The position numbers were made by a program, and so were the translations under genes. A DNA stretch of 41,555 bases, taken from IMG/VR virus record IMGVR_UViG_2698536372_000033. The stretch is one strand, 5' to 3'. The DNA is from a virus. Lineage: Duplodnaviria > Heunggongvirae > Uroviricota > Caudoviricetes. Positions 1 through 9,828 of this stretch are shown here, piece after piece. A model generated the notes under the pieces. The model did no database searches and had not been told where the DNA came from. It worked only from the letters and a program-made list of their open reading frames with translations. Within the stretch, counting starts at the first letter, position 1. Every line of letters starts with the position of its first letter.

Positions 1-1002
1 TTACCCTCTATTGTCAAAAGGGTTCAATTCAACAGCAGCCTCTAAATGACCTGGAGCAAAATGCGCATAACGCATAGTCATTTTTATATCGCTATGCCCC
101 AGTATTTTTTGCAACACAAGAATATTTCCGCCCCGCATCATAAAATGACTGGCAAACGTGTGACGTAGCACATGAGTTAATTGCCCATCAGGAAGCTCGA
201 TCTTCGCTCTCTTAATTGCAGCGTCAAAAGCCTCATAACATGGTGAAAATAGCGCTCCTCGTTTTTGAGGAAGCATAGCCTGCAATTGAGGTGAAATCGG
301 TACAGTGCGGTTCTTCTTTCCTTTAGTTTTAACAAATGTGATTCGACCGGGCAGTACTTGAGATTGCTTTAATCCTTCAGCTTCACTCCACCGAGCACCA
401 GTCGCAAGCCCAATACGGACAACAACCCCCAAATCTTTATTCCGTGACTCATCACACGCAATCAGAAGGCGTTCAATCTCATCTACATACAGAAACGCCA
501 GTTCCTTTTCTTCCTCACGAAACTTGCGAATACCAGTCAGGGGGTTTTCACCAGACCACTCCCCAAGGCGCTTCAGTTCGGCAAAAACAGCATGTAGATA
601 TGACTGCTCGCGATTAACGGTTGCTTCACTAAGTTTTTTCTTCCCCTTGGGATTCCATTCTCCTGATAGCCTTCTTTCCCGATAAGTAGCAAACATATTT
701 TTGTCAAACTGAGAAGCAAATGGATCCCCCAGCCTGGAACAAATCGCCTCAAGTTTGACTTTGCGCTCTGCACCAGAGGACAAGGTTTTACCGTACATCT
801 CAAACCAACGAGCAATCAACTCAGAAAGACGAGGACCAGAACCATCTTGAAACTCGTCTCCAACTCTACTATTCATTAAACGGCGCTCATAAGAGAGCGC
901 CTCACTTTTTGTCGCAAACTGTTTACGAATGCGTTTTCCCGATGCCCCGTAGGGATAACATTCGCAAAGCCATTTACCTGATGGAATCTTACGAACCGAC
1001 AT
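1..1002 (-). CDS. int: Tyrosine site-specific integrase (P2 Int-like)
   Basis: 333-aa ORF; C-terminal region HVLRHTFASHFMMRGG...MTMRYAHF matches the catalytic R/H-x-x-R/Y region of phage tyrosine recombinases; sits at the prophage end in the same operon as the repressor, as in P2. Confidence 0.9.
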   Translation of the reverse strand: MSVRKIPSGKWLCECYPYGASGKRIRKQFATKSEALSYERRLMNSRVGDEFQDGSGPRLSELIARWFEMYGKTLSSGAERKVKLEAICSRLGDPFASQFDKNMFATYRERRLSGEWNPKGKKKLSEATVNREQSYLHAVFAELKRLGEWSGENPLTGIRKFREEEKELAFLYVDEIERLLIACDESRNKDLGVVVRIGLATGARWSEAEGLKQSQVLPGRITFVKTKGKKNRTVPISPQLQAMLPQKRGALFSPCYEAFDAAIKRAKIELPDGQLTHVLRHTFASHFMMRGGNILVLQKILGHSDIKMTMRYAHFAPGHLEAAVELNPFDNRG

Positions 1003-1007
1003 TTTAG

Positions 1008-1355
1008 TTACTTATCACATAAATCAAATGCAGCCTTAGTGACATCCCCCAGACTCTTTTTTAACCCTGGGGCGGCATCATTATCTAGCCAAAATGGATT
1101 ATTGTTATCTAACGGTAACGCACCAAATGTTTTACCTTTTATTCGAGCTAAACCTGTAAGCGCATATAACTTATTATCGTCAAAATTCATCACATAAGGA
1201 TTACCATCAAGACACTGTAATTGAACCTCATCAGTATTAAATGGCCATACCCCATTGAAACTCTCACGTTCAATAGTTTTAAAAGGCATTGCGACGGCGG
1301 AAAAAGAAAACATAGATAAAAAAGTAACTAATAGTTGAACCTTTTTTACTTTCAT
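1008..1355 (-). CDS. Small secreted/periplasmic protein of unknown function (cargo in repressor-int operon)
   Basis: 115 aa; N-terminal signal peptide MKVKKVQLLVTFLSMFSFSAVA with AXA-type cleavage site, no lipobox; two Cys; AT-rich; 5 bp from int start. Confidence 0.55.
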   Translation of the reverse strand: MKVKKVQLLVTFLSMFSFSAVAMPFKTIERESFNGVWPFNTDEVQLQCLDGNPYVMNFDDNKLYALTGLARIKGKTFGALPLDNNNPFWLDNDAAPGLKKSLGDVTKAAFDLCDK

Positions 1356-1384
1356 ATCATTACCTCAATTTAGCTCAAGTAAGA

Positions 1385-2035
1385 TTACAAATTAAAAAAC
1401 ACCCTAGAAATGGCACCGCCTACCAAAACCCCTACGCAGATAAAGAATATTATTTCTTTTGGATAAAGTCGGATTAATTCTGAAGCACGAAGTCGAACTT
1501 CTGGTAAGGCCGAACTCTCTGTGTGACTTGATGCCGATTGTTGCTCTAACCACGACAATGCAGACTGTAACTGAGAACGAGTAAGATCGTTTAAACGTCC
1601 TGTACCGAAATTGATATGGCAATACCGCAGAAGTTTTTGTCGAAGTCCACAGTCTTCACTGTTACGTAGTAATAAACTTACAAGAGTCTTACAGGCATCA
1701 TGATCTTTACATCGCTCAAGCATTGCATGCAGAAAACTCTCCGCTGTTTTATATTGATTTACTGTCATATCATCAATACCAGCTACACCAATCTCCGCAT
1801 GTACTTTTTGCCAAATAATAAACGCTTCAGTATTGCTAGCTTCTGCAATAGCAGCAACCAAGCTATTTAGCTCCTTACGCTGAGCCTTAAGCAAAGGGCG
1901 ATCGTCATCATCATTATTCGAAGGGATTGCGATATTGACGGTATGAGAACCATCATATCGCTCTATCTGAATATTCTTTTCGTGAAAATCACGCCCAGCA
2001 ACGCGATTGTTTGAACCGTTTGAGTTGACGGCCAT
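1385..2035 (-). CDS. C-terminally membrane-anchored protein of unknown function (cargo in repressor-int operon)
   Basis: 216 aa; hydrophobic C-terminal helix IIFFICVGVLVGGAISRVFF; N-terminus carries motif NNRVAGRDFHE that is also at the C-terminus of the upstream repressor; 15 bp downstream of repressor stop. Confidence 0.55.
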   Translation of the reverse strand: MAVNSNGSNNRVAGRDFHEKNIQIERYDGSHTVNIAIPSNNDDDDRPLLKAQRKELNSLVAAIAEASNTEAFIIWQKVHAEIGVAGIDDMTVNQYKTAESFLHAMLERCKDHDACKTLVSLLLRNSEDCGLRQKLLRYCHINFGTGRLNDLTRSQLQSALSWLEQQSASSHTESSALPEVRLRASELIRLYPKEIIFFICVGVLVGGAISRVFFNL

Positions 2036-2050
2036 GTCACCTCCCTACTA

Positions 2051-2455
2051 TCACCTACCCTTAGTTTCGTTATAGTCACGACCAGCGATACGGTTATTAC
2101 CACCAGAAATATTTAACTCACGTCCTGATGGCTGAGTTTCCTTTTCACTGATCGCACCTTTTAAAGCCCCGATCACCGCGTTTTTCACATCTAACGAAGC
2201 TGCTCGAAAGCGAGTAATCAACTCCTGCTCATCATCGTTATAAGTTTCAGGTGAGTGAATTCCCAACACAACATACTGAACATCAAGGCCAAAACGAGAC
2301 AGCGCTGCCAAATACGCAGCATCAGGAAAGCTATCTCCTTTCTCATATCTAAGCTGAGTTAGCTTTTTGACTCCACCAATGTCGCTCATGGCAACTTGAC
2401 TAAGTCCCAATCTTTCCCTTTCCTCACGCAACCGCTGACCAATATCATTTTTCAT
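2051..2455 (-). CDS. Immunity repressor, XRE-family HTH (P2 C / 186 CI position)
   Basis: 134 aa; N-terminal HTH QRLREERERLGLSQVAMSDIGGVKKLTQLRYEKG; divergent from early operon across a promoter region; first gene of the leftward int operon. Confidence 0.8.
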   Translation of the reverse strand: MKNDIGQRLREERERLGLSQVAMSDIGGVKKLTQLRYEKGDSFPDAAYLAALSRFGLDVQYVVLGIHSPETYNDDEQELITRFRAASLDVKNAVIGALKGAISEKETQPSGRELNISGGNNRIAGRDYNETKGR

Positions 2456-2530
2456 ACAAAAACCTTGACAGGTATCTTTTTTGATACCAAAATGATTTCA
2501 CGAGCTATTAGATGATCACAATATACCACT
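2456..2530. promoter_or_regulatory. Divergent early promoter/operator region (lysis-lysogeny switch, Pe/Pc equivalent)
   Basis: 75-bp gap between divergent repressor and early operon; TTGACA at 2465-2470 with A/T-rich -10 candidates 17 bp downstream; several TGAT-containing repeats. Confidence 0.45.
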
Positions 2531-2737
2531 ATGAAACAAGTTCTTCACGATACCAGATCACGCATTCCGCGTAACACCGCCACAGGTCCAAGACTGGCAC
2601 TTCGGCTGTCCCTCGAGGAGCGAGCCGTCATTGATGAAATGGCAGCTAAAGAACAACGCTCATCCTCTAACATGGCGCGCATGATCTTCCTTCGCGGCCT
2701 AGAGCTAACCCAGAAAGAACAAAACAAATCTTCCTGA
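2531..2737 (+). CDS. Small ribbon-helix-helix-like DNA-binding protein, first early gene (Cox/Apl position)
   Basis: 68 aa; pattern RLALRLSLEERAVIDEMAAKEQRSSSNMARMIF resembles RHH/MobC-type binders; position corresponds to P2 cox. Confidence 0.45.
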   Translation: MKQVLHDTRSRIPRNTATGPRLALRLSLEERAVIDEMAAKEQRSSSNMARMIFLRGLELTQKEQNKSS

Positions 2738-2753
2738 TCAGGAGGCTAGTGGG

Positions 2754-2957
2754 ATGTCAGGTATAACCATCAATATCAATGTGAATGCCCCCTATGTATC
2801 CCTGCAGAAATATGCAGAGATAACAGGTATCCCTCTTAATACATGCAAAAAGATGTTGGCTGACGGTCGAATTATTATCCGCCCCAAACGCGCCAAAATG
2901 GAAAAGCCTGAAGTAAACCTTGTGGCGATGTTAAAAGACGCTTTGGCTAACAGCTAA
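2754..2957 (+). CDS. Small HTH DNA-binding protein (excisionase/AlpA-like regulator candidate)
   Basis: 67 aa; LQKYAEITGIPLNTCKKMLADGRIII looks like a helix-turn-helix; GGAG-containing RBS region upstream. Confidence 0.45.
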   Translation: MSGITININVNAPYVSLQKYAEITGIPLNTCKKMLADGRIIIRPKRAKMEKPEVNLVAMLKDALANS

Positions 2958-2978
2958 AACAATGAACAGAGCATCATC

Positions 2979-3329
2979 ATGAAAAAAAACACTAATAATC
3001 CATACTCCAAATTTCGTAATGGCGTAGAACGCCATGTACACCACGTCGCTACCAGTGCATCACGTAGTAACAGCCGCTATAACCTGAACGAGACGCACGC
3101 AACACCAGATGGGCACGCTGTAAAACAAATCGGCGAACACACCTGGCTGATTGAGAAAGCTGGAATCGTGGTTCACAGATGCCCACACAATCCGTTTACC
3201 GGAAACCGCATTTTTGCATTAAGCAGCGGCGATAATCAGTTCGGGCAGGATTTCACATTGTACGAAGCACTACGCACAGTCGATCGTCTGCTTCGCGGGC
3301 AAAGTTTTATTAAACAGGCTGCTTTATAA
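2979..3329 (+). CDS. Hypothetical early-operon protein
   Basis: 116-aa ORF in co-directional early operon; no recognised motif. Confidence 0.5.
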   Translation: MKKNTNNPYSKFRNGVERHVHHVATSASRSNSRYNLNETHATPDGHAVKQIGEHTWLIEKAGIVVHRCPHNPFTGNRIFALSSGDNQFGQDFTLYEALRTVDRLLRGQSFIKQAAL

Positions 3330-3339
3330 CAGGTGCTTT

Positions 3340-3618
3340 ATGACTAAAGACCATGCACAAGGTGTATTTATCCGCTTTATTGATTTTCGCGGTGAACTGT
3401 TATTACGCGCATCAGCTATTGACGGAGTAGTTCCATCTGAAAAAAACGCAGCTACCTACGTTTATCTGAACGGTACACGCCTGACTGTAGAGCTTCCGTA
3501 CCAGATCATTCGCGAAATAATTAGCGAAGCCGAAAAATCTCGTCAGGTTAATGGCGATGAACCCTATATCGAGATTATCTGCATGGATTCAGAAGCTGAA
3601 ATTCAGAAAGCAGATTAA
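3340..3618 (+). CDS. Hypothetical early-operon protein
   Basis: 92-aa ORF, 10 bp after previous gene. Confidence 0.5.
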   Translation: MTKDHAQGVFIRFIDFRGELLLRASAIDGVVPSEKNAATYVYLNGTRLTVELPYQIIREIISEAEKSRQVNGDEPYIEIICMDSEAEIQKAD

Positions 3619-3629
3619 AGGGTGTTGCG

Positions 3630-3872
3630 ATGGATAAAGAATATAAAACTCTCATCAACAAAGCACTTGAGCGTTTTTATTTTCGTTTAAGCGCATCCGG
3701 CGCTCATTCAGAACGTGCAGCCCGTGACTCATTGACCAGGGCTATCCGGAGTCTGTATGACGTAGCTTTTTACGCTGACGATCTGGATGCACTTAATGAA
3801 CTTTCTGAGCTTATCTGCGCCGCAGAATGCGGGGAGCATATTGAGCCGTACAAACTGGGAAATATCGCATGA
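3630..3872 (+). CDS. Hypothetical early-operon protein
   Basis: 80-aa ORF; stop overlaps start of the next small ORF (ATGA). Confidence 0.5.
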   Translation: MDKEYKTLINKALERFYFRLSASGAHSERAARDSLTRAIRSLYDVAFYADDLDALNELSELICAAECGEHIEPYKLGNIA

Positions 3873-3982
3873 GTATATTTATATCCTGGATTGTTCTTAT
3901 TATTTCGGTGGTTTGTGCAATTGGTATTATGCGAATTATTAATTCAGTAAAAAAGATTGAACGCTTTTTCACTGGCGAATAA
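3869..3982 (+). CDS. 37-aa single-pass membrane peptide (MSIFISWIVLIISVVCAIGIMRIINSVKKIERFFTGE)
   Basis: Not in ORF track (too short); ATG at 3869 overlaps upstream stop by ATGA; hydrophobic helix then basic tail; AT-rich. Confidence 0.35.
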   Translation: MSIFISWIVLIISVVCAIGIMRIINSVKKIERFFTGE

Positions 3983-4068
3983 CCGCATAAATAAAACCCC
4001 AGCTTAAATAAAAAAATGTGAACACAATCTGCATTCGCAGAGGTATTCACACACACCAAGGAGGCGTA

Positions 4069-4272
4069 ATGGCAATTAAGCATTTTCCTGTCGTTCGTTT
4101 CACCTCCAGAGGACGTGAATACGAAGTCGACGAACGTCTGATTACCACAATCGACAAACACCGCTCAGAAAAGGATGCACACCACATCTATCTCACTGAC
4201 GGCACTTACTTTTGCGCCACTAATGTGGCGCGGGTGAATCTTATCCGACAGGTACAGGATCCACGCAAATGA
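4069..4272 (+). CDS. Hypothetical early-operon protein
   Basis: ATG at 4069 preceded by AAGGAGG (4057-4063); 67 aa MAIKHFPVVRFTSRGREYEV...; ORF-track start at 4018 is probably too far upstream. Confidence 0.55.
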   Translation: MAIKHFPVVRFTSRGREYEVDERLITTIDKHRSEKDAHHIYLTDGTYFCATNVARVNLIRQVQDPRK

Positions 4273-4487
4273 GTAGGAGAAGAATCACTCGCAGACATCA
4301 CCGAACACACCTGAGTTCCTCAGCAACGCTAAAGGCACTTATTCAAAGCGAGATCGGTGATTTCTTCGCGGGAGTTGGCTCACCAGGCGAACCAGAAACA
4401 CCAGAAGCGATGCAGCGTGAGCTCATGATACGCATAGATAACACTTTTGATTTCTTCTACAGCATGCACGGAATTAAACAGAAATGA
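4269..4487 (+). CDS. Hypothetical early-operon protein
   Basis: 72-aa ORF, start overlaps previous stop. Confidence 0.45.
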   Translation: MSRRRITRRHHRTHLSSSATLKALIQSEIGDFFAGVGSPGEPETPEAMQRELMIRIDNTFDFFYSMHGIKQK

Positions 4488-4595
4488 ACCTCAAGCCAGC
4501 AATAACTACTCGTAGAACGTCAATTCCTGTAACCGACCGCTTCTGAGTTTTTTGGCAGGAAGCCTTCGCACATCTGTAGTAAAGAGAATTGCAGC

Positions 4596-4985
4596 ATGAT
4601 TGACGCTCATGACTTCACAAGATGGGTGCGCACACAGGACACCCGTCTGGCTCCCGTTCTTCAGGGATTATTTGATCTCTACATCCGTGGTCGTGACAAC
4701 AGAGCACGCACCACAAAACCGGAGAATGCAGACACCCTTTATTTCACAGTAGACGACTGCTACCGCGTGGACTTCACACCACACGGGCTGGCGTTGCACT
4801 GCCTGACACCACACGGCGAATCACTGCTGGCGTATTACGACTCCCCGGCCTCCATATTTGCGGCAATGCTGGCGCATCGCACTGCTGGCGGGTGTGCCTC
4901 GCTGAGTGAATACTCCGCTGAATTTAACCGCCTTTCCGCCCTCTTCTCACAGGAGTGGCAGCGCGTGACGGGATACCAGCCATGA
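4596..4985 (+). CDS. Hypothetical early-operon protein upstream of replication gene
   Basis: 129-aa ORF; stop overlaps ATG 4982 of the replication gene. Confidence 0.5.
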   Translation: MIDAHDFTRWVRTQDTRLAPVLQGLFDLYIRGRDNRARTTKPENADTLYFTVDDCYRVDFTPHGLALHCLTPHGESLLAYYDSPASIFAAMLAHRTAGGCASLSEYSAEFNRLSALFSQEWQRVTGYQP

Positions 4986-7822
4986 GTGCGTTTGCATGGA
5001 GCTGGAATGAACCACGGCCAGCCATTGATCCGGCCAGATTTACGGAGCGCAGGCAGGAAACTGAAACCGACCTGCAACGCGCCATCCGTTACTACCTTGA
5101 GGCAAACAAAAGGGCACAGGAAGAACAGGAAGCGAAGGAAGAAGCCTTTTTCGCACAATCCACCGTGGGTAAAAAACTCATGGCATCCCTTGAGGAAGCC
5201 GGACAGCGTGAAAAGCTGGCACAAAGCATCATCAGCAAGCGTCAGGCAACAGAACAAGACCCGGTGGCCCGTGCTTTTGCCACACTGAAGGTGCTTCCCG
5301 TTTATCTGCGTGAACCTCTGAGCCGCCACCTCTCTTTTCTGCGCAAGAAGCAGGAAGCCGATCGTCAGAAAGGCAAAAAGAGCTGGCAGGCTGAACGCTA
5401 CGCGCGCGGAACCCTGCGCAAAATATTCGAACGTCTGGACCGCACCGACAGCCGCTGGCTGACACCGGGCTATCGCTCCCTTGCCGGACGCGAACGCCTG
5501 GACGATTTGCTTTACCTGCCGCAGCTCAACAAACACCAGATACAGACGCTGGCCACCATGACGGCGGCGATGTTCAGTGGCACTTTTGAAAAACTCTGCG
5601 ATGGCTTTGGCGCGACCGATGGCGAGCTGACCATGGATGTAACGCTGAAGGCGTATCAGATGCTGGCCCGCATGGCGTTACACCTGCACGCTATGCCTCC
5701 ACATTATGACGCTCTGACAACAGACAAAGACCGGAGGAATGAACCGGACACGGAGCTGCTGCCGGGCGCAATCCTTCGCCTGACCTGTGCGGAATGGTGG
5801 AAACGCAAACTGTGGCTGTTACGTTGCGAGTGGAGAGAAGAACAACTCCGCGCCGCCTGTCTGGTTTCCAGAAAAACATCACCCTATCTGAGCCAGGACG
5901 CGTTAAGCGAGTTTCGCGCACAGCGCGAGAAAACACGCGATTTCCTGAAAAGTTTCATGCTGGAAAACGAAGACGGGTTCACGATTGATCTCGAGACAGT
6001 GTATTACGCGGGAGTAAGTAACCCGATTCACCGTAAGGCAGAAATGATGGCCACCATGAAGGGGCTGGAACTTCTGGCCGAAGCCCGTGGCGACAGAGCG
6101 GTGTTTCTGACTGTCACCTGCCCGTCAAAATACCACGCCACAACAGAGAACGGTCATCCGAATCCCAAATGGAACGGGGCCACCATGCGCGACTCCAGCG
6201 ATTACCTGGTTAACACGTTTTTTGCGGCGGTCCGCAAGAAACTGAACCGCGACGGCCTGCGCTGGTATGGCATCCGCACGGTGGAGCCTCACCATGACGG
6301 CACCGTGCACTGGCATATGATGGTCTTTGCTCATCCGGAAGAAATCGACACCATTGTGTCCCACACCCGCGATATTGCCATTCAGGAAGACCGCCACGAG
6401 CTGGGCAATGATATTACTCCGCGCTTTAAGGTGGAGTATGTCGACGGCTCAAAAGGCACGCCAACCAGCTACATCGCCACCTACATCGGAAAGAACCTGG
6501 ACAGCCGCGCCGTGGATGGCATCGACCCGAAAACGGGCAAGCCACGCGTTGACCACGAAACCGGAAAATCAATGGCCGAGAGCGTGGAACGCGCCATCGG
6601 CTGGGCACGCCTTCACCGGGTCCGCCAGTTCCAGTTCTTTGGCATCCCCTCCCGTCAGGTATGGCGTGAACTCCGCCGCCTTGCCAGCCAGATGGCACGC
6701 AACCCGGAAGGCCCACAACGGCTGAAGGATGATGCAATGGATGCGGTACTCGCTGCCGCTGATGCCGGGTGTTTTGCCACCTACATTGAGAAACAGGGCG
6801 GCGTACTTGTTCCACGCAAAGACTACCTGATTCGCACCGCCTACGACCTCGCAGATGAGCTGAACGATTACGGCGAACAGAGCGTACAGATTTACGGGAT
6901 CTGGTCACCACTCATCGGGGAATCCTCCCGTGTGTGCACGCACCCGGATAACTGGAAGCTGGTAAGACGTAAACCGGAAGCGGAAGACAGCACCCGCGAA
7001 AATGGTTTTGACCTTCAGGGCGGCCCTGCCGCCCCTTGGACTCGTGGCAATAACTGTCCCCGTGTACAGGAAACGGACAACAACGGGACAGAACAGCCGG
7101 AAGAAAGGCCAGCACCGTGGCCGCAGCTTCCTGACGGCGTTGACGTGAATGAATGGATGCGCTCACTGAAACGGCACGAACGCCGGGCGCTGATGCGTTC
7201 GCTGCGTGACAAACAGGCAAAAAACAGCAGTGATGAAATGCAGAACTGGACACAGAGCCGCAAACAGCCACGGCCTTTGCCTGATAATCACGAGTTACTC
7301 GCTAAAGAATGGCGGGAGTCTGCTGAATCTCTCGGCCTGCATATCGGTGAACAGCAGATGCAGCACCTGTTACGGGGCGGCAGTCTGTACGTTGACGGCA
7401 GCATCATTGCACCGCAGGGATTTGAAATTGTACGCAAACCAGATACCCGCCCGGACAGCCGAATCACGCAACTCTGGCAGCGCCTGAGCCGTAATCACGG
7501 CGTAAGCAGCACGGAGATCCGCCATAACCCGGTCGCCAGCTATCTGGAACAGCTGGGGGCATCAGACCCCGAAGCCGCCGCACACCTGGCATCCACACTT
7601 CAGCAGGACCAGAACACCATGAAAACCCCCGTTACCGTGCTTTCTGACATGCTGCGCGCCATCCGTGACGCAGTGCACGCACAGAGAATCAGTGAAACCA
7701 CTGAACGCGCCCACCGCAAAGCAGACCTGCTGCGGGGTAGCCTGACCAGTGGAAACAAAAAACAGACAGAAACGGGACTCACAAATCCCGTAAATGAGCA
7801 AAAAACGTGCCGCGATATATGA
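4982..7822 (+). CDS. A: Replication initiation endonuclease (P2 gpA-like rolling-circle initiator)
   Basis: About 950-aa ORF in the P2 gene A position; contains histidine-hydrophobic motif HWHMMVFAH typical of rolling-circle initiators; start uncertain (ATG 4982 or in-frame GTG 4955). Confidence 0.85.
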   Translation: MSAFAWSWNEPRPAIDPARFTERRQETETDLQRAIRYYLEANKRAQEEQEAKEEAFFAQSTVGKKLMASLEEAGQREKLAQSIISKRQATEQDPVARAFATLKVLPVYLREPLSRHLSFLRKKQEADRQKGKKSWQAERYARGTLRKIFERLDRTDSRWLTPGYRSLAGRERLDDLLYLPQLNKHQIQTLATMTAAMFSGTFEKLCDGFGATDGELTMDVTLKAYQMLARMALHLHAMPPHYDALTTDKDRRNEPDTELLPGAILRLTCAEWWKRKLWLLRCEWREEQLRAACLVSRKTSPYLSQDALSEFRAQREKTRDFLKSFMLENEDGFTIDLETVYYAGVSNPIHRKAEMMATMKGLELLAEARGDRAVFLTVTCPSKYHATTENGHPNPKWNGATMRDSSDYLVNTFFAAVRKKLNRDGLRWYGIRTVEPHHDGTVHWHMMVFAHPEEIDTIVSHTRDIAIQEDRHELGNDITPRFKVEYVDGSKGTPTSYIATYIGKNLDSRAVDGIDPKTGKPRVDHETGKSMAESVERAIGWARLHRVRQFQFFGIPSRQVWRELRRLASQMARNPEGPQRLKDDAMDAVLAAADAGCFATYIEKQGGVLVPRKDYLIRTAYDLADELNDYGEQSVQIYGIWSPLIGESSRVCTHPDNWKLVRRKPEAEDSTRENGFDLQGGPAAPWTRGNNCPRVQETDNNGTEQPEERPAPWPQLPDGVDVNEWMRSLKRHERRALMRSLRDKQAKNSSDEMQNWTQSRKQPRPLPDNHELLAKEWRESAESLGLHIGEQQMQHLLRGGSLYVDGSIIAPQGFEIVRKPDTRPDSRITQLWQRLSRNHGVSSTEIRHNPVASYLEQLGASDPEAAAHLASTLQQDQNTMKTPVTVLSDMLRAIRDAVHAQRISETTERAHRKADLLRGSLTSGNKKQTETGLTNPVNEQKTCRDI

Positions 7823-7898: not shown

Positions 7899-8858
7899 AT
7901 GAAAATTTGTATCGACGACGGCTCCACCAACATCAAGCTGGCATGGACTGAGAACGGCGAACGCCGCAACGCCATCAGCCCGAACAGCTTCAAGTCGGAA
8001 TGGTCTGCGCCGTTCGGTGGCACGCAGCCCGCGAACTACATGCTTGATGGCGTGCGCTATGGTTTTGATCCGGTCAGCGATCGCTTTGTCCAGACGACCG
8101 ACACGCAATACCAGTACAGCGATGTGAATATAATTGCCATTCATCACGCGCTGGTCAAATCAGGCATCACACCACAGGAAGTGGATGTGGTTGTCACCCT
8201 GCCACTGAGCGAGTATTTCGATACAAACGCACAGCCGGACATGGCCAACATCAACCGCAAAAAAGCGAACGTCATGCGCCCGGTGGAGTACCAGAACGGC
8301 GAAGCATTCACTATCCGTAACGTACGGGTTATGCCTGAATCCATTCCGGCTGGCTTTAAGGCACTGGCTGACATGAGTCCGTTTGAATCCCTGCTGATTG
8401 TGGATTTGGGCGGAACCACTCTGGATGTGGCAAAGGTTCAGGGGCAACTGGCAGGTATCAGCCAGGTGTTTTGCGATCCACACGTGGGCGTTTCTCTGAT
8501 GGCCGATGCCGTACTGTCGGTGATGGCCACTAACGGTATGCGCACCAGTCACCACATCGCCAATACCATTATCGAACATCGCCATGATGAAGCCTGGCTG
8601 CGCCAGCACATCCACAATGACGCGCATTACGCCAGCCTGATGGCGGTTATTCGTGAAAAGGAAGAAACACTGAAACAACGCGTGATCCGCGCGCTGGCGG
8701 GTTTTTCGGGTTACGGGCGGGTGATGGTTGTCGGTGGAGGGGCGGAGATTGTGGCACCCGCTATCCGCGAAGCCTGCGGAGTTAATGCGACTTTCATCGC
8801 GGACGGGGTGCCACAGTTTGCTCTGGTTAATGGGCTGTACGCAATGGACAAGGAGTAA
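7899..8858 (+). CDS. parM: ParM/StbA-like actin-family segregation ATPase
   Basis: 319 aa; N-terminus MKICIDDGSTNIKLAW and internal VMPESIPAG, DLGGTTLD, VMVVGGGAE closely follow plasmid R1 ParM as I recall it (phosphate-1, phosphate-2 and adenosine motifs of actin fold). Confidence 0.8.
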   Translation: MKICIDDGSTNIKLAWTENGERRNAISPNSFKSEWSAPFGGTQPANYMLDGVRYGFDPVSDRFVQTTDTQYQYSDVNIIAIHHALVKSGITPQEVDVVVTLPLSEYFDTNAQPDMANINRKKANVMRPVEYQNGEAFTIRNVRVMPESIPAGFKALADMSPFESLLIVDLGGTTLDVAKVQGQLAGISQVFCDPHVGVSLMADAVLSVMATNGMRTSHHIANTIIEHRHDEAWLRQHIHNDAHYASLMAVIREKEETLKQRVIRALAGFSGYGRVMVVGGGAEIVAPAIREACGVNATFIADGVPQFALVNGLYAMDKE

Positions 8859-8862
8859 ACCA

Positions 8863-9174
8863 ATGACGACTCCAACCAGACGGATAAGTTTCTATCTGAA
8901 GCCCACCGCCGTCAAGAACGAAGGAGAAGCATGCGCCTGGCTGGACAGCCTTACACCAGAAGCCCGCAAAAGCGGCCAACGCGTGGCTTTTCTGGCCGGG
9001 CTGGCACTTCTGAAAATGAATCCGGCAGAGGCTTATCGACTGGCTGCATGGGCTGGTGATGAAGCGTTATCAGTGACACAAACCAGGACAGAACGCCCCG
9101 CATCACAGCCAGTATCAACCGCACAGATAACCAGTCAGATGGCCGGAAATATCCGGGCGTTATTTCCTGAATAA
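8863..9174 (+). CDS. parR: ParR-like adaptor/centromere-binding protein
   Basis: ATG at 8863, 7 nt after AGGAG and 4 nt after parM stop; 103 aa; RRISFYLKP...LDSLTPEARKS...AFLAGLALLK parallels R1 ParR N-terminus (RRTIAFKLNP...DSIPQGERS...AALTAGLALY); ORF-track start 8728 is too far upstream. Confidence 0.6.
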   Translation: MTTPTRRISFYLKPTAVKNEGEACAWLDSLTPEARKSGQRVAFLAGLALLKMNPAEAYRLAAWAGDEALSVTQTRTERPASQPVSTAQITSQMAGNIRALFPE

Positions 9175-9237: not shown

Positions 9238-9828
9238 ATGAGCGAAATCAACTATCAGGCATTACGTGAACGTTATTCACCTGTGCCAGTACCGAAATGC
9301 CCTATTTGCGGCGAGGAAATGTCAATTCAGCGAATATCTGGAGCACAGGTTGTTTATGCCTGCTCCGGTTATGGTGATGATGGAGATTTCAAAATTGGCC
9401 GAACTCTTGCCGACGAACATTATGAAAAATCACGCGTAACAGTGTTGGATGTCGGGGATCCTGAAGTATTGGCGCTACTTGATTGGCTGGAAACCAAAGA
9501 CAACCGAATCGCTGAACTGGAAAAAATCGCCACTGACTATGCACTTAAATTCCAGAAAGCACAGGACGCATTAAAGTATGCCGCTTTGCTGCATAGCAGG
9601 ACGGCGCAACAAACAAATAATTTTGCAGTATCGCTTCCGGACATAAGCGAATATTTCATTAATGACGTATTTCAGCCCTTGCGATACGAGCGGGATGTTG
9701 AAAGAGCCATCATAAAGGCTGGCGGAAAAGCATTGTGGCAGGAGAAACACGAGGACAGAACGCATCAGTCCTGCGATGTAAATCGTGGATGGTTTAGCCC
9801 ACTGACGACAGATAAAAATAACACCTGA
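9238..9828 (+). CDS. Hypothetical protein with N-terminal Cys-rich (zinc-ribbon-like) segment and coiled-coil
   Basis: 196 aa; CPICGEE...YACSG; RBS AAGGAGA upstream; flanked by similar hairpins. Confidence 0.55.
   Translation: MSEINYQALRERYSPVPVPKCPICGEEMSIQRISGAQVVYACSGYGDDGDFKIGRTLADEHYEKSRVTVLDVGDPEVLALLDWLETKDNRIAELEKIATDYALKFQKAQDALKYAALLHSRTAQQTNNFAVSLPDISEYFINDVFQPLRYERDVERAIIKAGGKALWQEKHEDRTHQSCDVNRGWFSPLTTDKNNT

What the first reader, a model, noticed from the sequence alone, without database searches (positions are those of the whole stretch)
1008..2035. Two cargo genes inside the repressor-integrase operon (lysogen-expressed position)
Between the repressor and int, on the same strand, lie a 216-aa C-terminally membrane-anchored protein and a 115-aa signal-peptide protein. 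P2 has no genes here as far as I recall. Genes co-transcribed with the immunity repressor are expressed in the lysogen, the classic location for exclusion or defence functions (as with lambda rexAB), and both products are envelope-targeted.
Basis: partly seen in the sequence, partly recalled or inferred. Interest (0 to 1): 0.6.

Follow-up and report, generated by a model that had tools for sequence, protein, structure and literature searches.

The report
Repressor's membrane partner plus swappable cargo gene
Between the repressor and integrase of this P2-like E. coli prophage, one gene is ordinary swappable cargo (a secreted YebY-like protein), while the other is a membrane-anchored protein that always accompanies this repressor type and copies its tail peptide, suggesting an undescribed part of the lysis-lysogeny switch.

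Summary
Two real genes lie between the HTH repressor (2051-2455) and int (1-1002), all on the minus strand with gaps of 5-29 nt and no terminator. P2, P88, PhiR44_2 and Shae_phiSM have nothing at this position.

The two genes have different status.

The 115-aa gene (1008-1355) encodes a Sec-exported YebY/DUF2511 protein. It keeps that family's Trp37 and Cys48-Cys113. It sits in a hypervariable slot that in related prophages holds at least 9 unrelated genes, or none. It is true cargo, positionally like the periplasmic exclusion protein Glo of Vibrio phage K139.

The 216-aa gene (1385-2035) is not free cargo.
- It is a tail-anchored, cytoplasm-facing protein with a Flk_N helical domain, remotely like the C-terminal domains of Ant antirepressors and Red-beta.
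- Wherever its upstream neighbour was examined (about 126 loci in P2-like and Mu-like prophages), that neighbour was this repressor family.
- Its disordered N-terminal peptide copies the repressor's disordered C-terminal tail (NRxAGRD[YF]xE). The two change together across lineages.
- The one tail-less repressor context examined lacks it.

I infer a membrane-tethered regulator that pairs with the repressor tail or competes with it. No transcription, binding or phenotype data exist. I found no description of this pairing.

The parts
1..1002 (-). Tyrosine integrase (333 aa), last gene of the presumed lysogenic operon
   Evidence: Pfam Int_N 5e-32 and Phage_integrase 2e-22. The prophage lies next to yecA in E. 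coli.
1008..1355 (-). 115-aa YebY/DUF2511-family protein, the occupant of the variable cargo slot
   Evidence: Pfam DUF2511 scores 28.4 bits against a cutoff of 21. phrog_2950 8.7e-40. PDB YebY 7n0j E=0.0027. Trp37, Cys48 and Cys113 are invariant. dN/dS 0.05-0.11. The slot holds at least 9 alternative families.
1290..1355 (-). Sec signal peptide (residues 1-22, MKVKKVQLLVTFLSMFSFSAVA; no lipobox cysteine)
   Evidence: Read from the sequence. The YebY family is periplasmic (PMC8689200).
1385..2035 (-). 216-aa tail-anchored Flk_N protein, the constant partner of the repressor
   Evidence: Pfam PF27202 Flk_N is precomputed on the 99%-identical cluster. NCBIfam Flk 8.9e-16, but 58 bits against a cutoff of 353. 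phrog_5825 3.7e-102. Always the gene after the repressor.
1979..2029 (-). N-terminal 'head' peptide VNSNGSNNRVAGRDFHE (residues 3-19), a copy of the repressor tail, in a predicted disordered segment (residues 1-45)
   Evidence: Invariant S5 G7 N10 R11 G14 R15 D16 E19. pLDDT about 50. Smith-Waterman score of tail versus head is 62 against a shuffle mean of 20.5, sd 4.6. Codons differ synonymously.
1511..1900 (-). Flk_N helical domain (residues 46-175, five helices)
1394..1453 (-). C-terminal transmembrane anchor (about residues 195-214), with only a few residues beyond it
   Evidence: Hydrophobic segment with invariant G202 and G206. Modelled as a helix spanning 184-215. Many homologues end directly after it.
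2051..2455 (-). 134-aa XRE-type HTH immunity repressor, first gene of the operon
   Evidence: HTH_31/HTH_3 and phrog_8/phrog_4. AlphaFold2 model: HTH 1-65, helical hairpin 74-105, disordered tail 106-134.
2066..2116 (-). Repressor C-terminal 'tail' peptide LNISGGNNRIAGRDYNE (residues 114-130)
   Evidence: Invariant G118 R122 A124 G125 R126 D127 Y128 N129 E130 although the HTH domains are only 40% identical. pLDDT 46-50.
2038..2045 (-). Shine-Dalgarno GGGAGGTG for the 216-aa gene, in the 15-nt gap after the repressor stop codon
   Evidence: Intergenic length varies from 8 to 25 nt among loci, so read-through fusion is excluded.
2465..2493 (+). Pe-like early promoter (TTGACA-17-CAAAAT) carrying the perfect palindrome GGTATC-N6-GATACC (2471-2488), a candidate operator
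   Evidence: The position relative to the repressor start matches P2 Pe.

Best explanation
The interval holds two lysogenic-operon genes of different status.

(a) The 216-aa protein is a tail-anchored inner-membrane protein. Its cytoplasmic part has a disordered N-terminal peptide followed by a Flk_N helical domain, a small protein-interaction fold also found at the C-termini of Ant antirepressors, GemA, ORF6C, Red-beta and Erf.
- It is the dedicated partner of this family of XRE repressors, not cargo.
- Its N-terminal peptide is a copy of the repressor's disordered C-terminal tail, and the two are kept alike by selection.
- Most likely the two peptides either pair with each other or compete for one phage-encoded binding site, plausibly the Flk_N domain itself.
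- The membrane protein would then capture, titrate or buffer the repressor (or its antagonist) at the membrane. That would set the threshold of the lysis-lysogeny switch and might couple it to envelope state. The closest working analogy is SinI/SinR-type mimicry of a repressor's interaction element.

(b) The 115-aa protein is a Sec-exported, disulfide-bonded periplasmic YebY/DUF2511 protein. It occupies a hypervariable moron slot just before int. It is a lysogenic-conversion gene, most likely protecting the envelope, either by superinfection exclusion as with K139 Glo or by binding a toxic ligand as with MlbQ.

Shown: the gene order, the linkage, the shared co-varying peptide, the fold and the slot variability.
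Inferred: co-transcription, physical interaction, the direction of the regulatory effect, and any exclusion phenotype.
For: Linkage:
- The Flk_N gene follows the repressor after 8-25 nt in 13 genome loci from Escherichia, Klebsiella, Serratia, Rosenbergiella, Mixta, Izhakiella, Enterobacter, Erwinia, Hafnia and Symbiopectobacterium.
- The same holds in 80 of 80 IMG/VR loci.
- It holds in 29 loci of the class-B survey, which are contigs of about 35 kb. In 27 of them the repressor carries the matching tail.
- It holds in Mu-like transposable prophages of Pseudomonas, Pectobacterium and others.
- A homologous repressor without the tail (P0374) is followed by unrelated genes instead.

Shared peptide:
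- Tail and head are alike in every pair. Smith-Waterman scores are 37-67 against a shuffle mean of about 19, sd 4.
- Two motif classes exist: A, G..NR.AGRD[YF].E, and B, F.G.VGQ..AGD[IV]NN. Class-A tails go with class-A heads and class-B with class-B. Cross-class scores are 14-28 except for L026/L029 (33).
- In L193/L194 both termini are replaced together.
- The codons differ synonymously, so the constraint acts on the protein.
- Both peptides are predicted disordered (pLDDT about 50) next to confidently folded domains.

Fusion hint: phrog_17822 matches the repressor over profile positions 5-103 and Flk_N proteins over positions 135-263.

Cargo slot:
- At least 9 families or nothing occupy it.
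- The YebY membership features are met.
- The YebY paper had already noted yebY between a recombinase and a CI repressor in Enterobacteriaceae.
- K139 provides the cI-orf2-glo-int precedent.

Operon: tight spacing and no terminator.
Against: - No experimental data of any kind exist for these proteins. There is no transcription evidence for this prophage, and literature and accession searches found nothing.
The physical interaction is therefore inferred only from co-variation and linkage.
- The co-variation rests on a few deep lineage splits (two classes plus one replacement). Within class B the cognate pair is not always the best-scoring pair.
- Linkage could also reflect inheritance of the immunity region as a block.
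- dN/dS of the 216-aa gene is relatively high, up to 0.57.
- Among 50,697 sequenced phages, only one prophage-derived record carries the gene.
Confidence: 0.5

Rival explanations
1. Both genes are lysogen-expressed exclusion or defence effectors. The 216-aa membrane protein would block DNA entry or trigger abortive infection, in the manner of RexB, SieB or Sie2009. It would travel with the repressor only because the immunity region is inherited as a block.
For: - The position downstream of the repressor is the classic place for sie and rex genes.
- K139 Glo sits in the same operon and excludes phage.
- Both proteins have a membrane or periplasmic location.
- phrog_6521, a 'moron, membrane protein' family, hits the N-terminal half at 8.8e-10.
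- Neighbouring slot genes include defence-like domains: BRCT and TIR.
Against: - A free defence gene would be expected to vary, as the adjacent slot does. Instead this gene was constant in every locus examined, across P2-like and Mu-like backbones.
- This reading does not explain why the N-terminal peptide copies the repressor tail and co-varies with it.
- It does not explain why the one tail-less repressor context examined lacks the gene.
- There is no PADLOC hit.
- Nearly the whole protein is cytoplasmic.
Confidence: 0.2
2. The shared peptide is a recognition signal for a host factor, for example a degron or adaptor site for FtsH, ClpXP or Lon. The membrane protein would act as a decoy or adaptor that sets repressor stability, much as lambda CIII protects CII from FtsH.
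For: - The terminal, disordered position of both peptides is typical of degrons.
- The membrane location would place the protein next to FtsH.
- CII of the P2-like phage 186 is degraded by FtsH and RseP (abstract of PMC7708051).
Against: - Two very different motif classes, each matched within its own pair, occur in the same host groups. Pectobacterium has both class A (P0309, P0324) and class B (P0321).
- A conserved host protease would not select for that pattern.
- No known degron resembles NRxAGRDY. A PDB search with the N-terminal 45 residues found nothing.
Confidence: 0.15
3. The 216-aa protein is a phage copy of Flk (Fluke). It would act on the flagellar type III export gate, changing motility or flagellin display in the lysogen.
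For: - NCBIfam Flk 8.9e-16 over residues 37-166.
- It shares Flk's tail-anchored, cytoplasm-facing architecture (PMC13344023).
- True Flk proteins are retrieved by the family profile at about 1e-15.
Against: - The score is 58 bits against the equivalog cutoff of 353.
- It has one Flk_N unit where Flk shows two matched stretches.
- It is abundant in prophages of Klebsiella pneumoniae (P0096 is indexed in 1,158 blocks of the collection). That species is non-flagellate (my own knowledge).
- This reading does not explain the repressor linkage or the shared peptide.
Confidence: 0.05

Closest known systems
Vibrio phage K139 lysogenic operon cI-orf2-glo-int (Nesper et al. 1999, J Bacteriol 181:2902; annotation in NC_003313)
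   Same: It is a P2-like phage (Peduoviridae). Two extra genes lie between the repressor and int on the mapped lysogenic (PL) operon. The gene next to int encodes a small periplasmic protein (Glo) involved in phage exclusion.
   Different: Glo is not homologous to the 115-aa protein (BLASTP E 7.5). K139 orf2 is a BRCT protein, not Flk_N. K139 cI is a different, 215-aa repressor in which no shared tail has been noted.
E. coli YebY (DUF2511; PDB 7n0j) and Microbispora MlbQ
   Same: Same Pfam family. Signal peptide, Trp37 and the Cys48-Cys113 disulfide pair are conserved at identical positions, and the size is similar.
   Different: It is not in a yobA-yebZ-yebY copper operon but in a prophage immunity operon. 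The match to 7n0j is distant (phmmer E=0.0027 over about 80 aligned residues). The function of the phage copy is unknown.
Flk / Fluke (RflH) of Salmonella and E. coli
   Same: Flk_N domain homology (E about 1e-15). C-terminal tail anchor with the bulk of the protein in the cytoplasm.
   Different: 216 aa versus about 333 aa. It scores far below the equivalog cutoff. It is prophage-borne and repressor-linked. It carries the N-terminal repressor-tail peptide, which Flk lacks.
SinI/SinR of Bacillus subtilis (antagonist that carries a copy of the repressor's interaction element)
   Same: An XRE-type HTH repressor and an adjacent gene whose product shares the repressor's non-DNA-binding terminal element. 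This is a working analogy for how a shared peptide could mediate hetero-association (own knowledge).
   Different: There is no sequence relationship. The shared element here is a short disordered peptide, not a helical hook. The partner is membrane-anchored and has its own folded domain. The interaction has not been demonstrated.
Phage antirepressors of the Ant type (phrog_245, phrog_2127), ORF6C, Mu GemA, and the Red-beta/Erf/Sak C-terminal domains
   Different: Only the small C-terminal helical module is shared. The Ant, Bro-N or KilA-N N-terminal domain is absent. No antirepressor is known to be tail-anchored or encoded in the repressor's own operon.

Membership tests
DUF2511 / YebY (PF10709), for the 115-aa protein | Profile score above Pfam's gathering threshold | tested here: met
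   28.4 bits against a cutoff of 21, covering profile positions 2-87 of 87. PF10709 is also precomputed on homologues.
DUF2511 / YebY (PF10709), for the 115-aa protein | Export signal plus the conserved Trp37 and the Cys48-Cys113 disulfide pair | tested here: met
   The signal peptide is read from the sequence. W37, C48 and C113 are invariant in 11 homologues, at the same numbering as in YebY. Disulfide formation itself was not tested.
DUF2511 / YebY (PF10709), for the 115-aa protein | AZY (yobA-yebZ-yebY) copper-operon context of the E. coli prototype | tested here: not met
   The gene lies between the Flk_N gene and int in a prophage. It is therefore a family member but not a YebY orthologue.
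Flk (NCBIfam NF007987 equivalog), for the 216-aa protein | Score at or above the curated equivalog cutoff | tested here: not met
   58.1 bits against 353.
Flk (NCBIfam NF007987 equivalog), for the 216-aa protein | Protein of about 330 aa with two Flk_N-like stretches and a C-terminal anchor | tested here: not met
   216 aa with a single matched stretch. True Flk representatives (320-410 aa) show two stretches. The anchor is present.
Flk (NCBIfam NF007987 equivalog), for the 216-aa protein | Holds the flagellar type III export apparatus in early mode | not testable with these tools
   This needs genetics.
Flk_N domain family (PF27202), for the 216-aa protein | Pfam domain assignment | tested here: met
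   PF27202 is precomputed for the 99%-identical cluster P0001 and for nearly all homologues. The model is absent from the local Pfam copy.
Known anti-phage defence systems (PADLOC 2.0) | Match to any defence-protein model | tested here: not met
   No hit for either protein at E up to 0.1.
Superinfection-exclusion genes of the repressor-int interval (K139 Glo type) | Position in the lysogenic operon next to int, with an exported product | tested here: met
Superinfection-exclusion genes of the repressor-int interval (K139 Glo type) | Homology to Glo | tested here: not met
   BLASTP E 7.5.
Superinfection-exclusion genes of the repressor-int interval (K139 Glo type) | Exclusion phenotype | not testable with these tools
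   This needs plating assays.
Ant-type antirepressors (phrog_245) | Full-length match including the N-terminal Ant, Bro or KilA-N domain | tested here: not met
   Only profile positions of about 141-283 of 319 are matched, at weak E values.

The most novel reading that the evidence does not exclude
A widespread family of phage repressors in P2-like and Mu-like prophages of Enterobacterales, Pseudomonas and relatives is controlled by a dedicated tail-anchored membrane protein. That protein recognises or mimics the repressor's C-terminal tail peptide. It would tether or titrate the repressor at the inner membrane and so link prophage maintenance or induction to the state of the cell envelope. 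This would be a switch component and signal route distinct from RecA/LexA cleavage and from soluble antirepressors.
Probability: 0.3. Interest if true: 0.8.

Novelty: new variant of a known kind. Interest (0 to 1): 0.6.

Why it matters
P2-like prophages with this immunity module are very common. 507 of 5,426 complete E. coli genomes carry at least 80% of this region, and the Klebsiella version is indexed in more than a thousand blocks of the assembly collection.

Many P2-like prophages are not inducible by SOS (own knowledge), and I found nothing published on how this module's repressor is switched. A repressor-specific membrane partner with a matched peptide would give a concrete, easily testable candidate for how these prophages set or sense their switch.

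The shared-peptide signature could also be used to find similar partner pairs in other phages.

Separately, the slot before int is a well-defined cargo hotspot. Its occupants include YebY-like, BRCT and DUF8087 proteins and membrane proteins, and a TIR-domain gene lies nearby in one Mu-like phage. It is worth screening for exclusion or defence functions. It differs from the P2 defence hotspots I recall from the literature (own knowledge).

Tried and rejected
1. Complex modelling. There is no heterodimer model.
2. Programmed read-through or fusion of the two ORFs. Rejected, because the intergenic lengths are 8, 9, 11, 15, 17, 18 and 25 nt, not consistently in frame.
3. The shared motif as a DNA or RNA repeat or a product of gene conversion. 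Rejected, because the two copies use different synonymous codons within and between loci.
4. Homology of the 115-aa protein to K139 Glo. None.
5. PADLOC defence models. No hit.
6. PDB sequence search for the 216-aa protein and for its N-terminal 45 residues. Nothing significant.
7. BFVD fold search. No hit at E up to 0.001, only weak ORF6C, RecT and Bro tails. The AlphaFold database library was unavailable.
8. tblastn of distant Flk_N proteins against 50,697 phage records. Only Escherichia phage 520873 was found.
9. Literature. Searches on Flk with prophage, on the accession numbers, on P2-like sie genes and on tail-anchored antirepressors found no description. The K139 paper is not held. The 2011 survey of P2-like regulatory regions mentions only heterogeneous 'less common' regions.
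10. A sigma-70 Pc promoter was not detected by the consensus scan. Its position is inferred from P2.
11. Fine-scale one-to-one matching of tail and head within class B is not strict. Only class-level co-variation is claimed.
Full report
**What is there**

The window is a complete P2-like prophage of the P88/Xuanwuvirus type. It is 100% identical over 1-3400 to prophages next to yecA in E. coli O26:H11 11368 and many other strains. 507 of 5,426 complete E. coli genomes carry at least 80% of this stretch.

On the minus strand lie four genes, with gaps of 5, 29 and 15 nt:
- int, 1-1002;
- a 115-aa ORF, 1008-1355;
- a 216-aa ORF, 1385-2035;
- a 134-aa XRE-type HTH repressor, 2051-2455.

No terminator-like site lies on that strand between 2455 and 1002. 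Both middle genes have Shine-Dalgarno sequences. Both are conserved across genera under purifying selection: dN/dS is 0.05-0.11 for the 115-aa gene and 0.26-0.57 for the 216-aa gene.

P2 has int and C adjacent. So do the closer relatives P88, PhiR44_2 and Shae_phiSM, which share the early genes from about 3010 onward but carry a P2-type C repressor. That module also has its own Arc-like (2531-2737) and Cox-like (2754-2957) early genes.

**The 115-aa protein**

It has a typical Sec signal peptide (MKVKKVQLLVTFLSMFSFSAVA|MP, no lipobox). Three results place it in the YebY/DUF2511 family:
- It passes Pfam's threshold for DUF2511/YebY, 28.4 bits against 21.
- It matches the solved E. coli YebY structure 7n0j.
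- It keeps Trp37, Cys48 and Cys113, the residues that define YebY's fold and disulfide, invariant in 11 homologues.

YebY is periplasmic. Its only characterised relative, MlbQ, binds a lantibiotic for self-protection. The YebY paper already noted that some yebY genes lie between a recombinase and a CI repressor in Enterobacteriaceae.

The phage subfamily was found only in this position, after the Flk_N gene and before int.

**The slot is variable, so the 115-aa gene is cargo**

In otherwise collinear prophages, the position between the Flk_N gene and int holds one of the following:
- the YebY-like gene;
- a 288-aa BRCT-domain protein;
- an 81-108-aa acidic DUF8087 protein;
- a 291-298-aa protein;
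- a 242-244-aa membrane protein;
- several singleton genes;
- two or three genes;
- nothing.

That is at least 9 unrelated families in 69 IMG/VR loci.

The closest precedent is Vibrio phage K139, also in Peduoviridae. Its mapped lysogenic operon is cI-orf2-glo-int, and Glo is a periplasmic protein involved in phage exclusion (Nesper et al. 1999, cited in PMC4870250). Glo is not homologous to the 115-aa protein.

Its actual function is untested, and PADLOC has no match.

**The 216-aa protein is not free cargo**

It is a Flk_N-domain protein:
- PF27202 is precomputed on its cluster.
- NCBIfam Flk gives 8.9e-16 but only 58 bits against the cutoff of 353, so it is not Flk itself.

AlphaFold2, with 47 sequences and mean pLDDT 85.5, gives:
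- a disordered N-terminus, residues 1-45, pLDDT about 50;
- a five-helix domain, residues 46-175, pLDDT 96-98;
- a C-terminal helix, residues 184-215, that contains the hydrophobic anchor.

Many homologues end right after the anchor. The protein is therefore tail-anchored with its bulk in the cytoplasm, like Flk.

In every locus where the upstream neighbour could be examined, it is the gene immediately after a repressor of this family:
- 13 genome loci from ten genera;
- 80 of 80 IMG/VR loci;
- 29 loci of a second lineage;
- Mu-like transposable prophages of Pseudomonas, Pectobacterium and others.

The HTH part of the repressor varies: two HTH types occur that are only about 40% identical. The repressor's C-terminal helix-plus-tail and the partner gene stay constant.

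**The shared peptide**

The repressor ends in ...LNISGGNNRIAGRDYNETKGR. The 216-aa protein begins MAVNSNGSNNRVAGRDFHEKN.

- The core G..NR.AGRD[YF].E is invariant or nearly so in both proteins across genera.
- The codons differ synonymously. The constraint is therefore on the proteins, not on a DNA repeat.
- The variable intergenic lengths rule out read-through.
- In both AlphaFold2 models the peptide lies in a disordered terminal tail.
- The similarity of tail to head is far above shuffled controls: Smith-Waterman 37-67 against a mean of about 19, sd 4.

A second lineage uses a different peptide, F.G.VGQ..AGD[IV]NN followed by about 10 more matching positions, again in both partners. Examples are TFHGSVGQSVAGNVTNKSGVTFNVGD versus DFHGDVGQAAAGDINNYGVSISLVD. 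Cross-class scores are mostly at background, 14-28, with 33 for L026/L029.

Three further observations fit a link between the two termini:
- In two loci (L193, L194) the repressor C-terminus and the partner N-terminus are both replaced by other sequences.
- A homologous repressor with no tail (P0374, common in E. coli) has unrelated genes downstream and no Flk_N gene.
- PHROG family 17822 matches the repressor over profile positions 5-103 and Flk_N proteins over positions 135-263. This suggests natural fusions, but the evidence is weak, E 1e-4 to 3e-3.

**What the domain resembles**

- 30 of 47 family members also hit the Ant antirepressor PHROG (best E 8e-7). 11 hit a second antirepressor PHROG, 10 hit Mu GemA and 4 hit ORF6C.
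- These are weak, domain-level resemblances to a common protein-interaction fold. They do not establish membership.

**Mechanism**

Shown:
- a conserved repressor-partner gene pair;
- a disordered peptide shared by, and co-varying between, the repressor's C-terminus and the partner's N-terminus;
- a membrane anchor;
- an interaction-type helical domain.

Inferred:
- The two peptides either pair with each other or are alternative ligands of one phage-encoded site, plausibly the Flk_N domain.
- The membrane protein therefore captures, titrates or buffers the repressor or its antagonist.
- It works like SinI/SinR-type mimicry, but tethered to the membrane.

The direction of the effect, stabilising or antagonising lysogeny, cannot be decided here.

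Rivals:
- A Rex/Sie-type effector inherited with the immunity block. This does not explain the peptide or the constancy next to a variable slot.
- A host-protease degron with the partner as decoy. This is hard to square with two matched motif classes in the same host groups.
- A Flk mimic acting on flagella. This is unlikely given the score, the architecture and the abundance in Klebsiella.

**Limits**

- There are no transcription, interaction or phenotype data.
- Complex modelling was not possible.
- The co-variation rests on a few deep splits.
- Only one record among 50,697 phage genomes, a prophage-derived one, carries the gene.
- I found no published description of this pairing.

**Verdict**

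- The 115-aa gene is an ordinary though uncharacterised moron of a known kind.
- The 216-aa gene is the more interesting find. It appears to be an undescribed, membrane-anchored partner of a widespread repressor family. I rate it a new variant of a known kind (an immunity-region accessory or antirepressor-like regulator), with interest of about 0.6.

Noticed in passing
window 7899-9174 (+), then 9238-9828 (+): A ParM/StbA actin-like protein (Pfam 3.7e-82 and 1.3e-68) and an overlapping StbB/Plasmid_stab_B protein (7.8e-23) form a plasmid-type partition pair inside an integrated P2-like prophage. An Ead/Ea22-like gene follows. They lie between the replication gene A (4955-7822) and the portal gene.
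   Followed up: partly
window 2471-2488 (within 2465-2493): A perfect palindrome, GGTATC-N6-GATACC, sits between the -35 and -10 of the Pe-like promoter. A further GATACC(A) lies at 2549-2555. These are candidate operators of the repressor.
   Followed up: partly
window 2531-2737 (+) versus 2545-2682 (-): The plus-strand 68-aa ORF is a strong Arc-like repressor match (phrog_3431, 9.8e-29). RefSeq instead annotates a 45-aa hypothetical protein on the opposite strand in O26:H11 11368. This is a probable misannotation.
   Followed up: partly
L006 5647-6513; L020; L032 (K139) 2194-3099: The slot before int holds a 288-aa BRCT-domain protein in Klebsiella and Enterobacter prophages (Pfam BRCT 5e-05). 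K139 orf2, between cI and glo, is also a BRCT protein with local similarity (E 5e-04). BRCT proteins therefore recur in repressor-int operons of Peduoviridae.
   Followed up: partly
L030 3990-4862: A TIR_2-domain protein is encoded two genes downstream of the repressor/Flk_N pair in a metagenomic contig whose neighbouring genes resemble those of the Mu-like loci. It lies just before the holin.
   Followed up: no
PHROG family phrog_17822 (profile of 267 positions): The repressor matches profile positions 5-103 (1.3e-10), and several Flk_N proteins match positions 135-263 (1e-4 to 3e-3). The family looks like a natural fusion of the two partners. Its members could not be retrieved.
   Followed up: partly
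L193 and L194 (IMG/VR contigs): The HTH family is the same, but the repressor has a different helical C-terminal domain of about 80 aa and no tail. The adjacent Flk_N protein has a different N-terminal extension of about 50 aa. Both termini were replaced together.
   Followed up: partly
L033 3857-4632; L025 4606-5254: The tail-less repressor variant (P0374) is followed by a 117-aa Cys-rich protein and a 140-aa protein with a hydrophobic C-terminus instead of Flk_N. A similar-looking pair, judged by eye and not aligned, follows the Flk_N gene in L025.
   Followed up: no
H10, NZ_AP042519.1 (E. coli OkiPb01684): An IS1A element is inserted within the region corresponding to window 1-3400 in this strain. 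The match is split into two pieces with an IS1 transposase under it.
   Followed up: no
L002 (Escherichia phage 520873, NC_049344) 1039-3065: This is the only phage-database record with these genes. Its int is split into two CDSs. Both middle genes are unannotated and match only as three frameshifted pieces. The record also starts in host yecA, so it is a prophage-derived, error-containing sequence.
   Followed up: partly
L022 (Candidatus Symbiopectobacterium) 3605-4631: In this symbiont genome the Flk_N gene is split by a frameshift. The motif has also decayed in both partners: AGNNFHE in the repressor tail and AVRDF in the head.
   Followed up: no
L081 versus window: Mosaicism: the repressor is 94% identical and int 90% identical to the window, but the Flk_N protein is only 67% identical and the slot gene is different (DUF8087). 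This indicates recombination breakpoints inside or next to the Flk_N gene.
   Followed up: no
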